A DNA stretch of 64,000 nucleotides from Escherichia coli (lineage in GTDB: Bacteria > Pseudomonadota > Gammaproteobacteria > Enterobacterales > Enterobacteriaceae): assembly GCF_016903815.1 (NCBI RefSeq), contig NZ_CP069973.1. One strand, given 5' to 3'. Position numbers: made by a program. Numbering within the stretch: the first letter of the stretch is position 1; each line of letters begins with the position of its first letter. This document shows, piece after piece, positions 15,601-18,600 of this stretch.

Positions 15601-18600
15601 TTTATTTTCTTAGTCATCACCATGACTCCGCCTTTACAGGTAAACCATCACGACCGAGGAAGACTTTAATCATGCGGTCAGTAATGCATGTTTTTGTGGT
15701 CAGGTTACGAATATATAGTTTTCGCTTTTTAATATTGTTTGCCGAGGCAATATATGTCCGGCCTTCATGAAGAACATAATCGCCAGGAGTCACACACTGA
15801 CGTGGTATTTCATCAGTTCCGAAGTGATGTGCAATCATAATTATCTCCATTTTTACAAATGAACTTTGTTGATGCGGTGCCTGGTGCCTCCAGGTGACTG
15901 CAACCAGTTAACAATTACAGTCGGCTTTCCCACCCAAACCAATAAGGACTAACATGACTTTTAACTGTGCCACGTGCGCTTAGCCGCATTCACCGCATCA
16001 CAAAATTCACTTTAAAAAGGGCGGACATCAGCCGAACTTCAAGAAAAAAACTGATGCCGCCAGGACTACACACAGCAATGTCGTTATTTACAACCGGAGG
16101 CGCACTCCCACCATTTAAATTTAACAGACAAGACCGACTCTTTATGGATATCGGAAATGCGCCTTCGTGTTGTGCCCGGTTTTATTTCACCACCTCCGGG
16201 CTTCGGTGGTCTCGGCTATACCCCTACAGCGAGAGCTTGTGTTAACATTTCAATACCCTTACAGTTGAGAGTTATTGATATGTTGGATGTATTTACTCCA
16301 TTGTTGAAACTTTTTGCTAACGAGCCACTCGAAAGACTTATGTATACGATTATCATTTTTGGTCTCACTCTCTGGCTGATACCGAAAGAGTTTACTGTCG
16401 CATTCAATGCTTATACTGAAATACCTTGGCTCTTTCAGATTATCGTTTTTGCCTTTTCTTTCGTGGTCGCCATTTCCTTCTCAAGATTGCGAGCACATAT
16501 TCAAAAGCATTATTCATTACTACCAGAGCAACGAGTATTGCTTCGTTTATCTGAGAAAGAAATCGCTGTATTTAAAGATTTCCTTAAAACAGGAAATCTT
16601 ATTATCACTTCTCCTTGCCGTAACCCGGTTATGAAAAAATTAGAACGGAAGGGCATCATTCAACATCAGAGTGATAGCGCAAACTGTTCTTATTATCTCG
16701 TCACCGAAAAATACTCCCATTTTATGAAGTTATTCTGGAACAGCAGGAGTAGACGTTTTAATCGTTAGCTTACTGTGTGCTTCTCCAACCATCGGCGCGC
16801 ACCAGTTTCGGTTTTAAATGTTTTGCTTTTGGTATACGTCATGGCAGTGAACGTTCCATCCTGGTTGGGGAACACGCCGCACACCAGGGATTCGTTGTTG
16901 CCGAGGTCGATTTTTTGCATTTTGCGAATCTCACATCTTGTTGCTACGTATAGCGACTTCTGCCTGCCAGAGATCCCAGTCGTTGCTGCGTAAAGCCTGC
17001 ACAGCCTGGTTGTAAGTGATACCGCAACAATCCATCAAATACTGAACTACTTCGTAATGCACCATCTTATCTATCCCCTTAACGCCGGGTGGCGGAACTA
17101 ACTGCTGCACTGCAAAATTTGAATCCCGCCGTCATGTTCATACGCCTCGGGCTGGCTACTTAACCCCTGACCACTGCCTGGTAACTCGAAGTATTGCCCG
17201 GCGTTCTGTGGGGCGGGGTGGGTTGGTAGGTATATAATGTACTTTGTGTTCATCATTGTAAAGTACTTTAAGTACATTTTATGTATAAAAAAATGAGACG
17301 GGATAAAGTGAAGCACAAACCCGGAGGGGGACGCTACCGGATTTATGCTGGTTTAAGAGGCTTTTTGTTTTTTCTTTCGTGCTAACTCTTCGTAAATTGC
17401 ATTGTACTTCTGTTTTTTCTCCTCAAGAGTTTTTAAAAGTTCATCTGTCTCACTGTCAGGGAGCTCGTCCAGAAGGTCAATGATGATTTTTTGTCTTGGA
17501 TTTAACTCCTGATAGAAACGTATCTGTCCACTTTCTTCTGTATCCTCTCCCAAAAGATAGGTTGGTGTTGTTCCAATGAGTGTTGCTAATTCCCTTAATT
17601 TCTCTCGGCGAGGAATTGTTTCACCATTAAACCATTTGCTAACCGCTTTTGGTGTTAATTTCATTCGACGGGCAATTTCTGCCTGCCTTCCATGTTGTTC
17701 ATAACCAGCGTTTTCACAGGCTAGCGCAAGCCTACTGGCGAACTCTTTACGCGCTTTATCTTCATGAACCATAAGTTCAATGATATTCGCTCTTGAATGT
17801 ACTGTCAGTTCTGTTATAGCATGTACTCAAAGTTCACATTGTGAGGGTGATATGAACCAGAAAACACTTGAAGATGTAATCAAAACTGTTCGCGTTTCTG
17901 TTGTGGCCGACGTTTGTGGTGTCAGCCAAAGAGCAATCTACAAATGGATGGATAACGGAAAATTGCCTCGCACAGAATATACCGGCGAAACAAATTACGC
18001 TGAAAAAATCGCTCATGCATCAAACGGATTATTTTCTGCCGATGCAATTTTAACTATTGGCAGAAATAAAACTACTACGAAAAAGCTGATGGGAGTTGAT
18101 TCATGAAAATCAAGCATGAGCACATCGAATCAGTGTTGTTAGCCCTGGCAGCCGAAAAAGGGCAGGCGTGGGTCGCTAACGCAATTACTGAAGAATATCT
18201 GCGCCAGGGGGGCGGCGAATTGCCCCTGGTACCAGGCAAGGACTGGAACAATCAGCAGAATATCTATCATCGTTGGTTGAAAGGTGAAACGAATGCGCAA
18301 AGGGAAAAAATTCAGAAACTGATCCCTGCGGTTCTGGCAATTCTTCCTCGCGAGCTGCGTCACCGACTCTGCATCTTCGATACCCTGGAACGCCGTGCAT
18401 TACTGGCGGCACAGGATGCACTGAGTACGGCAATTGATGCGCATGATGATGCAGTCCAGGCCGTTTACCGTAAAGCACATTTCAGCGGCGGCGGTTCTCC
18501 TAGCGATTCTGTCGTAGTGCATTGATTGAAATTAATCGTACCGAACTGTTTTGTTCGGTATCAGTTAAATGTAACGCTGCGAGCGTTACAAGGTGAAAAC

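What the first reader, a model, noticed from the sequence alone, without database searches (positions are those of the whole stretch)
17353..18525. Repressor with divergent ydaS-ydaT module: immunity region and conditionally toxic operon
The HTH repressor gene (17353-17772, minus strand) is transcribed divergently from a Cro-like ydaS and ydaT (17780-18525). In K-12 Rac, loss of RacR repression makes ydaS/ydaT toxic, so the pair behaves like a toxin-antitoxin-type addiction module. The operators should lie in the 17773-17851 spacer, and a perfect 12-bp palindrome TAAAGTACTTTA is present at 17259-17270 in the flanking non-coding region.
Basis: partly seen in the sequence, partly recalled or inferred. 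Interest (0 to 1): 0.35.

Follow-up and report, generated by a model that had tools for sequence, protein, structure and literature searches.

The report
Rac-like prophage lysis–lysogeny switch, HK022-type
This is the ordinary on/off control region of a full-length Rac-like prophage (repressor, Cro and the CII-equivalent YdaT with their operator sites), already annotated in E. coli O157 prophage Sp10, not a toxin–antitoxin module.

Summary
The genes and the palindrome are at the stated coordinates, but two labels are wrong. The repressor (17353-17772, minus strand) is not RacR. The Cro-like gene really starts at 17852 and is not YdaS. Only YdaT (18103-18525) is the K-12 orthologue, at 94% identity.

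An 868-bp cassette (17229-18096) replaces the K-12 racR-ydaS segment. Its Cro is 62% identical to phage HK022 Cro. Its repressor DNA-binding domain is 46% identical to HK022 CI. A matrix built only from HK022's five annotated operators ranks five sites flanking the repressor gene as the top five positions in the 64-kb window: three in OR (17765, 17798, 17822) and two in OL (17238, 17262).

Taken alone it is a chance-level feature (16 in the window, 16.5 in shuffles).

The repressor lacks the S24 self-cleavage domain and instead has a DicA-like helical tail. The same cassette, 99.9% identical, is in O157 Sakai prophage Sp10. Published work shows Sp10 is not mitomycin-inducible, yet it excises spontaneously, is packaged, and lysogenises Rac-carrying K-12.

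A perfect YdaT box (18096-18113) spans the ydaT start codon.

Verdict: a known lambdoid immunity region. The toxin-antitoxin reading is not supported. Interest is low.

The parts
17229..18096 (.). Exchangeable immunity cassette (pL/OL, repressor, OR, Cro-like gene) that replaces the K-12 racR-ydaS segment
   Evidence: K-12 Rac homology runs 10610-17228 (99.1%) and resumes at 18097. The cassette is present essentially whole in 1046 of 5426 complete E. coli genomes. It is 95.8% identical in the otherwise different phage Tritos and 99.9% identical in Sakai Sp10.
17353..17772 (-). Short CI-type repressor, 139 aa: an HK022-CI-like HTH domain (about aa 1-74), a linker, and a DicA-like two-helix tail. 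No S24 peptidase domain.
   Evidence: HTH_3, E 1.8e-9. 46% identical to HK022 CI over aa 4-102. 28% identical to DicA over aa 30-137, including the tail. NF007257 DicA scores 56 bits, below its cutoff of 101. AF2 model: helices 2-74, disordered 79-88, helices 92-103 and 108-138.
17765..17779 (+). OR3-type operator TGAACCATAAGTTCA, spanning the repressor start codon (17770-17772)
   Evidence: Identical to HK022 oR sites at 3000-3014 and 3057-3071. Top PWM score in the window, 20.9.
17798..17812 (+). OR2-type operator TGTACTGTCAGTTCT, abutting the pR -35 hexamer and containing the pRM -35 hexamer
   Evidence: The HK022 counterpart is TGTACTATCAGTTCC at 3033-3047.
17822..17836 (+). OR1-type operator TGTACTCAAAGTTCA, between the pR -10 hexamer and the Cro ribosome-binding site
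17780..17808 (-). pRM-like promoter CTGACA-17-TATCAT. The predicted transcript start is at about the repressor ATG, giving a leaderless mRNA.
   Evidence: 10/12 consensus match. HK022 has the same arrangement (read). The K-12 racR strongest promoter is also leaderless (PMC9638921). The function is inferred.
17793..17822 (+). pR-like promoter TTGAAT-18-TAGCAT (or TTGAAT-16-TATAGC), driving the Cro-like gene, ydaT and the replication genes
   Evidence: Relaxed scan, 8/12. It aligns with the annotated HK022 pR -35 and -10 hexamers. Inferred.
17852..18106 (+). HK022-type Cro homologue, 84 aa (not YdaS)
   Evidence: 62% identical to HK022 Cro, E 1e-34. No significant similarity to K-12 YdaS or to DicC. 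RefSeq uses the same start.
18096..18113 (+). YdaT box TTGATTCATGAAAATCAA, a perfect TTGATT-N6-AATCAA inverted repeat spanning the ydaT ATG
   Evidence: The only exact match in the window. K-12 has ATGATTCATGAAAATCAA at the same place, footprinted by YdaT (PMC11879457). CP-933P YdaT binds TTGATT-N6-AATCAA (PMC9986795).
18103..18525 (+). ydaT, the CII-equivalent transcription factor, 140 aa
   Evidence: 94% identical to K-12 YdaT. PF06254, E 6e-11. phrog_163 CII-like activator, E 5e-36. PDB 3c4r and 8bt1, E about 1e-6.
17238..17252 (+). OL1-type operator TGTACTTTGTGTTCA, overlapping the pL -10 hexamer
   Evidence: PWM 11.9, fifth best in the window. The HK022 counterpart is at 2201-2215.
17262..17276 (-). 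OL2-type operator TGTACTTAAAGTACT (minus-strand reading), next to the pL -35 hexamer
   Evidence: PWM 17.6, second best. The HK022 counterpart is at 2225-2239.
17234..17262 (-). pL-like promoter TTTACA-17-CATTAT, directing leftward transcription into ydaG, ydaF, kilR and recET
   Evidence: It lines up with the HK022 annotated pL -35 (TTTACA) and -10 hexamers. K-12 homology begins at 17228, about where the transcript would start.
17259..17270 (.). It combines the self-complementary half-site AGTACT of OL2 with part of the pL -35 hexamer, and is out of register with the 15-bp operator.
   Evidence: 16 such palindromes in the window against 16.5 expected. The HK022 equivalent, TAAAGTACCAAT, is not palindromic.

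Best explanation
This is the immunity (lysis-lysogeny) switch of a full-length Rac-like lambdoid prophage of the Sp10/CP-933R type.

Proposed mechanism:
- A short CI-type repressor dimer binds 15-bp pseudo-palindromic operators with consensus TG(T/A)AC(T/C)-N3-AGT(T/A)C(A/T).
- Three operators lie in OR and two in OL.
- Occupancy of OR1 and OR2 blocks pR, which drives the Cro-like gene, ydaT and the replication genes. Occupancy of OL1 and OL2 blocks pL, which drives ydaG, ydaF, kilR and recET.
- The repressor gene is transcribed from a pRM-like promoter as a leaderless mRNA. OR3 spans the start codon and allows autoregulation.
- The Cro homologue is expected to act on the same operators to commit the phage to lytic growth.
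- YdaT, the CII equivalent, binds the TTGATT-N6-AATCAA box at the Cro/ydaT junction. By analogy with K-12 Rac and CP-933P, it activates leftward (antisense) transcription towards the repressor gene, establishing repression.
- The repressor has HK022-type DNA specificity but a DicA-type helical tail in place of the S24 autopeptidase domain. The switch is therefore blind to RecA/SOS and flips spontaneously or on an unknown cue.

Shown here: homologies, operator sites and layout, cassette boundaries, and the YdaT box.
Shown in papers for the identical or orthologous parts: Sp10 is not mitomycin-inducible but excises, is packaged and transfers; YdaT binds its box and activates transcription.
Inferred: promoter assignments, the leaderless mRNA, which operator does what, Cro action, and dimerisation through the tail.
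For: 1. Context. recE, recT, kilR, sieB, ydaF and ydaG lie to the left. ydaT, a replication initiator and a DnaC-like loader lie to the right. The prophage sits next to ttcA and runs through the tail genes. Positions 9545-47346 are 99.995% identical to a 37.8-kb prophage record.
2. Protein homologies. Cro is 62% identical to HK022 Cro. The repressor DNA-binding domain is 46% identical to HK022 CI, and the recognition helix TPKAVSKWFNGE differs from HK022's TPKAISKWFNGE at one conservative position.
3. Operators. A pattern and a PWM built from HK022's annotated operators alone hit only the two flanks of the repressor gene. The pattern gives 7 strand-hits against 0.47 expected. The PWM's top five of 63,986 positions are these sites.
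4. Layout. OR spacing is 33 and 24 bp, the same as HK022 (33 and 24 bp), and one site covers the start codon in both.
5. Relatives. The same site layout is found with a 65%-identical Salmonella short repressor and a 63%-identical Klebsiella S24-bearing repressor, although the flanking genes differ. K-12 Rac and Qin have no such sites.
6. Promoters. pL and pRM promoter-like hexamers coincide with the operators.
7. YdaT. There is an exact YdaT box at the ydaT start, and the YdaT DNA-binding residues are conserved (PMC11879457).
8. Published Sp10 data (the cassette is 99.9% identical). The repressor lacks the peptidase motif. The prophage is not MMC-inducible. It excises spontaneously, is packaged, and transfers to K-12, where it integrates in tandem with Rac. 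That outcome fits heteroimmunity with RacR (PMC2669165).
9. Copy number. The cassette is single-copy in nearly every genome that has it, as expected for an immunity determinant.
Against: - No binding, transcript-start or repression experiment exists for this repressor or Cro.
- The pR hexamers are weak (8/12).
- No convincing YdaT-dependent reverse promoter was found inside the Cro-like gene; there are only two 8/12 candidates.
- The HK022 far-right operator just downstream of cro (L003 3324-3338) has no counterpart here.
- The tail's role in dimerisation rests on an AF2 monomer model built from a 7-sequence alignment.
- K-12 lysogens of Sp10 released no visible particles (PMC2669165), so full lytic competence is unproven.
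Confidence: 0.85

Rival explanations
1. Toxin-antitoxin-like addiction module. The Cro-like protein and YdaT would be dedicated toxins, and the repressor would exist to silence them, so that its loss kills the cell and stabilises the element.
For: - In K-12, racR cannot be deleted unless ydaS-ydaT are also removed, and YdaS, YdaS-T and YdaT are toxic when expressed (PMC5700373, PMC5700377, PMC11879457).
- YdaT here is 94% identical to the K-12 protein.
- Pfam still names PF06254 'Bacterial toxin ydaT'.
Against: - The Cro-like protein is an HK022 Cro homologue, not YdaS, and the repressor is not RacR. The K-12 YdaS toxicity therefore cannot be transferred.
- The genes are divergent and control is purely transcriptional. 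No toxin-antitoxin protein complex is implied.
- An earlier direct test found no TA activity for ydaST (Christensen-Dalsgaard 2010, as cited in PMC5917428 and PMC9986795).
- YdaT is a characterised tetrameric transcription factor that activates repressor expression (PMC11879457, PMC9986795).
- Lambda CII is also toxic when overproduced, yet it is not a toxin (PMC5917428).
- The prophage here is full length, so derepression would start a whole lytic programme.
Confidence: 0.08
2. Defective remnant. The 139-aa repressor would be a truncated, crippled HK022-type CI (scored 'D', defective, for Sp10 in 2009), and the region would be a decaying switch that merely keeps a fossil prophage silent.
For: - The S24 domain found in the closest long homologues (Klebsiella and Raoultella, 235-240 aa) is missing.
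- Sp10 is not induced by mitomycin C, and K-12 lysogens showed no particles (PMC2669165).
Against: - The C-terminal 50 residues are not junk left by truncation. They align with DicA's tail (LxPxxxxLLxLxxxLPxSExD ... EEL) and are conserved at 62-65% overall identity in Salmonella homologues.
- They are predicted as two confident helices.
- The cassette is intact in 1046 of the 1048 genomes that carry any of it.
- Sp10 excises spontaneously, its DNA is packaged, and it lysogenises K-12 (PMC2669165).
Confidence: 0.05

Closest known systems
Immunity region of prophage Sp10 (E. coli O157:H7 Sakai) / CP-933R, Rac-like prophages at ttcA
   Same: The cassette DNA is 99.9% identical. It has the same flanking genes and the same integration site next to ttcA. 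The genes ECs_1941-1943 are annotated phage repressor, Cro and regulatory protein. Published work notes that the repressor lacks the peptidase motif and that the prophage is not MMC-inducible (PMC2669165).
   Different: Essentially nothing within the module. The late regions of the prophages were not compared here.
Phage HK022 immunity region (cI, OR/OL, cro)
   Same: The Cro is 62% identical and the CI DNA-binding domain 46% identical, with a near-identical recognition helix. The 15-bp operator family is the same, and one site is identical base for base. The layout matches: OR spacing of 33 and 24 bp in both, OR3 over the start codon, two OL sites on the pL hexamers, and DNA similarity across OL and from cI-N through cro.
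   Different: HK022 CI carries an S24 autocleavage domain and is SOS-inducible, whereas this repressor has a DicA-like tail. HK022 has a lambda-type cII with pE and an extra operator just downstream of cro (L003 3324-3338). Here the CII role is taken by YdaT with its own box, and no extra operator was found.
K-12 Rac racR-ydaS-ydaT locus
   Same: The position in the prophage is the same. YdaT is 94% identical and the YdaT box is conserved at the ydaT start. Both have three operators, one over the repressor ATG, and a leaderless repressor mRNA (PMC9638921, PMC11879457).
   Different: RacR (158 aa, two HTH domains) and YdaS (PF15943) are unrelated to the repressor and Cro here. RacR operators, (T/A)TAGGC-n3-GCCTA(T/A), are absent. 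The two elements are heteroimmune, since Sp10 lysogenises Rac-carrying K-12 (PMC2669165).
DicA repressor of cryptic prophage Qin (with dicC and dicB)
   Same: The domain architecture is the same: an HTH_3 domain plus a short helical tail of about 50 aa, at similar length (135 vs 139 aa), 28% identical end to end. Phage Tritos carries this very cassette at the DicA position upstream of dicF and dicB.
   Different: The score is below the curated DicA family cutoff (56 vs 101 bits). DicC is unrelated to this Cro. The Qin region has no HK022-type operator sites.

Membership tests
Lambdoid prophage immunity region (CI / Cro / CII-equivalent switch) | A divergent repressor and Cro gene pair separated by a short region with multiple repressor operators overlapping divergent promoters | tested here: met
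   Three 15-bp sites at 17765, 17798 and 17822 overlap the pR-like and pRM-like hexamers.
Lambdoid prophage immunity region (CI / Cro / CII-equivalent switch) | A second operator cluster (OL) on the far side of the repressor gene, controlling a leftward early promoter | tested here: met
   Sites at 17238-17252 and 17262-17276 lie on TTTACA-17-CATTAT. They are homologous to HK022 oL and pL.
Lambdoid prophage immunity region (CI / Cro / CII-equivalent switch) | A CII-type establishment regulator immediately downstream of cro, followed by replication genes | tested here: met
   YdaT hits phrog_163 (CII-like activator) and PF06254, and the YdaT box is present. A replication initiator and a DnaC-like loader follow.
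Lambdoid prophage immunity region (CI / Cro / CII-equivalent switch) | A repressor carrying a LexA/S24-type autocleavage domain (the lambda, HK022 and 933W CI subclass) | tested here: not met
   There is no PF00717 hit and the protein is only 139 aa. Long homologues do carry PF00717. The same was noted for Sp10 (PMC2669165).
HK022-type immunity specificity | Repressor DNA-binding domain and Cro homologous to those of HK022 | tested here: met
   46% identity (E 9e-32) and 62% identity (E 1e-34) respectively.
HK022-type immunity specificity | Operators matching the HK022 operator consensus in the HK022 layout | tested here: met
   The HK022-derived PWM ranks the five sites as the top five in 64 kb, and 17765-17779 is identical to HK022 oR sites.
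HK022-type immunity specificity | Actual cross-immunity with HK022 (repressor of one represses the other) | not testable with these tools
   This needs superinfection or reporter assays.
K-12 RacR-YdaS-YdaT module | RacR orthologue and RacR operators | tested here: not met
   Only 12/33 residues align. There is no WTAGGC-N3-GCCTAW site even allowing one mismatch.
K-12 RacR-YdaS-YdaT module | YdaS (PF15943) orthologue | tested here: not met
   There is no PF15943 hit, and BLASTP aligns 6/18 residues at E 0.028.
K-12 RacR-YdaS-YdaT module | YdaT orthologue with its box at the ydaT start | tested here: met
   94% identity. The box is at 18096-18113.
Type II toxin-antitoxin system | Toxin and antitoxin co-transcribed, with the antitoxin neutralising the toxin by direct protein binding | tested here: not met
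   The repressor is divergent from the putative toxins and has no partner in their operon. The protein-protein neutralisation itself cannot be tested here. Literature reports no TA activity for ydaST (PMC5917428, PMC9986795).
DicA family (NCBIfam NF007257) | Score above the curated family cutoff | tested here: not met
   56.4 bits against a cutoff of 101, although the alignment covers profile positions 20-132 of 135 and DicA aligns over aa 30-137.

The most novel reading that the evidence does not exclude
The cassette is a natural chimera. It joins HK022-type DNA specificity (repressor DNA-binding domain, Cro, operators) to a DicA-type non-cleavable tail. This creates an SOS-blind switch, carried by about one in five sequenced E. 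coli, whose flipping signal is unknown.

Two untested consequences follow:
(a) Lysogens may be immune to HK022-type phages, and HK022 CI may silence this prophage.
(b) Induction may run through an unidentified small antirepressor that attacks the helical tail (SinR/SinI-like or Gifsy-like logic), or through the YdaT-RcsA circuit, rather than through RecA.
Probability: 0.15. Interest if true: 0.4.

Novelty: already known. Interest (0 to 1): 0.15.

Why it matters
The practical value is mainly in annotation.

- The Pfam and RefSeq 'toxin YdaT' label, and naming genes by position ('ydaS', 'racR'), invite a toxin-antitoxin reading of what is a standard phage switch.
- Recognising the swapped cassette explains why earlier surveys saw ydaT without racR (PMC5700373).
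- It also explains why Sp10-type prophages can coexist with K-12 Rac.

The operator map and the predicted HK022 specificity give directly testable sites. They could help predict superinfection immunity among E. coli strains. The open biological question is what induces SOS-blind prophages of this type.

Tried and rejected
- LexA-controlled antirepressor route: there is no CTGT-N8-ACAG box anywhere in the window.
- SinI-like antirepressor sharing the repressor tail: a low-stringency tblastn of the C-terminal 55 aa against the window found only the gene itself.
- PDB sequence search for the Cro-like protein: nothing significant.
- Foldseek of the AF2 repressor model against the PDB: only generic HTH_3 hits, including SinR and an arbitrium-phage repressor, with TM about 0.4. 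This says nothing about the tail.
- YdaT-dependent reverse promoter inside the Cro-like gene: only two weak 8/12 candidates, at 18004..17976 and 18056..18028. Neither was assigned.
- HK022 far-right operator equivalent: no PWM hit in 17852-18600.
- Extra YdaT sites in the intergenic region: none. Matches with two mismatches are at chance level, 9 against 5.7 expected.
- The 72-aa ORF at 17098-17316 (minus strand), which overlaps OL: no family hit and not annotated in RefSeq, so it is treated as spurious.
- Literature on phage Tritos: none found.
- 'vB_EcoS-673R7' turned out to be a prophage extracted in silico from clinical isolates, not proof of induction.
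Full report
**1. What is in the sequence**

The minus-strand ORF at 17353-17772 encodes a 139-aa protein with an HTH_3 domain (E 1.8e-9).

On the plus strand, the longest ORF of the next gene starts at 17780. The likely start is ATG 17852, preceded by GAGGGTG. That gives 84 aa and is the start RefSeq uses in genomes identical to this window.

ydaT is 18103-18525 and overlaps the previous stop codon by 4 nt.

**2. Context**

- To the left lie recT, recE, racC, ydaE, kilR, sieB, ydaF and ydaG.
- To the right lie a replication initiator, a DnaC/IstB-like loader and ydaW-like genes.
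- An integrase gene (9610-10845) sits beside a ttcA-sized gene. Terminase, portal, coat, tape-measure and tail-fibre-sized ORFs run to about 56 kb.
- Positions 9545-47346 are 99.995% identical to a 37.8-kb prophage record. That record was extracted in silico, so it is not proof of induction.

This is an apparently full-length Rac-like prophage, not the 23-kb K-12 remnant.

**3. The module is a swapped cassette**

Against K-12 Rac, the window is:
- 99.1% identical over 10610-17228;
- unrelated over 17229-18096;
- 92.5% identical over 18097-18523 (ydaT);
- unrelated over 18524-19017;
- 95.8% identical over 19018-20616.

At the protein level:
- The repressor aligns with RacR over only 12/33 residues.
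- The Cro-like protein aligns with YdaS over 6/18 residues and has no PF15943 hit.
- YdaT is 94% identical to K-12 YdaT. It keeps H56, R57, W58, L107 and A110, the residues shown to matter for DNA binding and tetramerisation (PMC11879457).

The names 'racR-like' and 'ydaS' therefore hold only by position.

The left boundary (17228/17229) falls about where a pL transcript would start. The right boundary (18096/18097) falls at the YdaT box. The exchanged unit is thus exactly the trans factors together with their cis sites.

**4. What the cassette is related to**

*The repressor*
- tblastn against phage records finds the repressor at 100% identity in three E. coli prophage records and at 99.3% in phage Tritos.
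- Its N-terminal part is also similar to Klebsiella phage repressors (63%), HK022 CI (46.5% over aa 4-102) and 933W/phi24B CI (50.7% over aa 1-73).
- The HTH recognition helix is TPKAVSKWFNGE here and TPKAISKWFNGE in HK022.

*The Cro-like protein*
- It is 62% identical to HK022 Cro (E 1e-34).
- blastn detects HK022 similarity across OL (17233-17291) and from the repressor N-terminus through OR into cro (17612-18022).

*The C-terminal part of the repressor*
- The long homologues are 235-240 aa and carry an S24 peptidase domain. This protein does not.
- Its last ~50 residues instead align with the tail of DicA, the Qin prophage repressor: 28% identity over aa 30-137, and NF007257 at 56 bits, below the cutoff of 101.
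- That tail is conserved in short Salmonella homologues that are 62-65% identical overall.
- AF2 (mean pLDDT 81.8) predicts a five-helix HTH domain (aa 2-74), a disordered linker (79-88) and two helices (92-103 and 108-138).
- PDB fold matches are generic HTH proteins.

**5. Operators**

HK022's GenBank record annotates three 15-bp oR sites and two oL sites. I read their sequences.

- A degenerate pattern built only from those five sites (TGWACYNNNNGTWCH) hits the 64-kb window at five places and nowhere else: 17238, 17262, 17765, 17798 and 17822. That is 7 strand-hits against 0.47 expected, and 0 of 100 shuffles reach it.
- A log-odds matrix built from the same five HK022 sites ranks these five as the best five of 63,986 positions (scores 20.9-11.9; the next best is 10.7).
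- Site 17765-17779 (TGAACCATAAGTTCA) is identical to two HK022 oR sites. As in HK022, it places the repressor start codon at positions 6-8 of the site.
- OR spacing is 33 and 24 bp, the same as HK022.

The same matrix was run on relatives and controls:
- It recovers the same five-site layout in Sakai Sp10 and phage Tritos.
- It finds a 3+3 layout around the Klebsiella S24-type repressor.
- It finds a 3+2 layout around the 65%-identical Salmonella short repressor, whose neighbouring genes differ.
- It finds nothing in K-12 Rac or Qin (best score 9.9).
- RacR's published operator, (T/A)TAGGC-n3-GCCTA(T/A) (PMC9638921), is absent from the window.

**6. Promoters (inferred)**

- A minus-strand CTGACA-17-TATCAT (17808..17780) would start transcription at about the repressor ATG. 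That gives a leaderless mRNA, as in lambda PRM and K-12 PracR3 (PMC9638921).
- A minus-strand TTTACA-17-CATTAT (17262..17234) coincides with HK022's annotated pL hexamers and with the two OL sites.
- pR is weaker: TTGAAT-18-TAGCAT, 8/12. It aligns with the HK022 pR hexamers.

**7. The palindrome**

Perfect 12-bp palindromes are not unusual here. The window has 16 and shuffles average 16.5.

This one arises because the OL2 half-site AGTACT is self-complementary and its flanks happen to extend the symmetry. Its centre (17264/17265) is out of register with the operator centre (17269). The HK022 equivalent is not palindromic. So it marks OL2 and the pL -35 hexamer, and is not a separate element.

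**8. YdaT and its box**

TTGATTCATGAAAATCAA (18096-18113) is the only exact TTGATT-N6-AATCAA in the window. It contains the ydaT ATG.

- In K-12 the same position reads ATGATTCATGAAAATCAA. YdaT footprints it there, and the box is required for up to 29-fold activation of a reverse promoter within ydaS that raises racR expression (PMC11879457).
- CP-933P YdaT binds TTGATT-N6-AATCAA and controls a PRE equivalent (PMC9986795).

I could not locate a convincing reverse promoter in this unrelated Cro gene. That step is therefore by analogy only.

**9. Published behaviour of the same cassette**

The cassette occurs in 1046 of 5426 complete E. coli genomes. It is almost always whole and single-copy.

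It is 99.9% identical in O157:H7 Sakai prophage Sp10. There the three genes are annotated repressor, Cro and regulatory protein, and the prophage lies next to ttcA.

Asadulghani et al. 2009 (PMC2669165) report that:
- the Sp10 repressor lacks the peptidase domain needed for SOS induction;
- Sp10 circular DNA does not rise with mitomycin C;
- Sp10 nevertheless excises spontaneously, and its DNA is packaged in untreated cultures;
- a marked Sp10 transfers to K-12, where it integrates in tandem with Rac.

Coexistence with Rac fits the heteroimmunity inferred here. Rac and Sp10 excision are also described as not mitomycin-inducible in PMC4632033.

**10. The toxin-antitoxin question**

K-12 work showed that racR is essential because ydaS and ydaT are toxic when derepressed (PMC5700373, PMC5700377). 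The same authors state that ydaS and ydaT are not a TA pair.

- Jobling (PMC5917428), Prolic-Kalinsek et al. (PMC9986795) and Wons et al. (PMC11879457) treat them as the Cro and CII equivalents.
- YdaT toxicity is attributed to its action as a transcription factor, including activation of host rcsA.
- In this window the YdaS argument does not apply at all, because the protein is different.
- The YdaT argument may apply, but only as overexpression toxicity of a regulator.
- In a full-length prophage, repressor loss would also unleash kilR, replication and lysis genes.

I therefore rate the addiction reading at about 0.08.

**11. Verdict**

This is a known kind of element, and effectively a known instance: the Sp10/CP-933R immunity region.

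What this analysis adds:
- the cassette boundaries;
- the HK022-type operator map, including OL, which explains the palindrome;
- the corrected Cro start and identity;
- the DicA-type tail of the repressor;
- the conserved YdaT box at the recombination joint.

Interest is low (0.15). The residual open question is what flips an SOS-blind switch that about 19% of sequenced E. coli carry.

Noticed in passing
window 22152-22925 (-): A 257-aa KilA-N protein matches phrog_6287, 'BstA abortive infection system, replication inhibitor', at E 2.7e-89. It is probably a prophage-encoded anti-phage defence gene in the nin region.
   Followed up: no
window 18571-18589, 18763-18781, 18970-18988: There are three 19-bp inverted repeats, GTAACGC-N5-GCGTTAC, with perfect arms (3 found against 0.14 expected). 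They lie just upstream of and inside the 5' half of the replication-initiator gene (18603-19391). That is the segment (18524-19017) that is not homologous to K-12 ydaU. They may be origin or initiator-binding sites swapped together with the initiator's N-terminal domain.
   Followed up: partly
window 16019-16074 (-) and 15831-16017 (-): Two sub-threshold Rfam matches: DicF (39 bits against a gathering score of 48, E 4e-6) and STnc100 (35.5 against 47). They lie between kilR and sieB, at the position of the K-12 kilS sRNA.
   Followed up: no
window 18522-18539: A second, degenerate YdaT-box-like sequence, TTGATTGAAATTAATCGT (2 mismatches), sits at the ydaT stop codon. Matches with two mismatches are at chance level overall. 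It is immediately followed by a hairpin (18539-18560) that the scan calls terminator-like on the minus strand.
   Followed up: no
window 20929-21366 (+): A Ren-like exclusion protein (phrog_142, E 2e-45), annotated DUF977 or 'phage exclusion protein' in relatives.
   Followed up: no
window 28270-30070: This stretch is 99.9% identical to the K-12 rzpR-trkG segment. The potassium transporter gene trkG is therefore carried as cargo inside this full-length prophage, after the lysis genes.
   Followed up: no
L011 6553-7220 (Salmonella enterica contig ABKIOY010000006.1): In the Salmonella relative, a HigB-toxin/HTH gene pair is inserted between the short repressor gene and its two OL sites (7313-7351). 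The gene after cro is not ydaT there.
   Followed up: partly
L003 3324-3338 (HK022 X16093): A sixth strong operator-type site, TGTACTTTTAGTACC, lies just downstream of HK022 cro and is not annotated in the record. It probably corresponds to the operator about 300 bp downstream of OR mentioned in PMC8053113. The window has no counterpart.
   Followed up: partly
window about 23448-23573 (+): RefSeq annotates a Hok/Gef family toxin gene in the identical genome, at L001 12549-12674. This is a genuine type I toxin locus within the same prophage.
   Followed up: no
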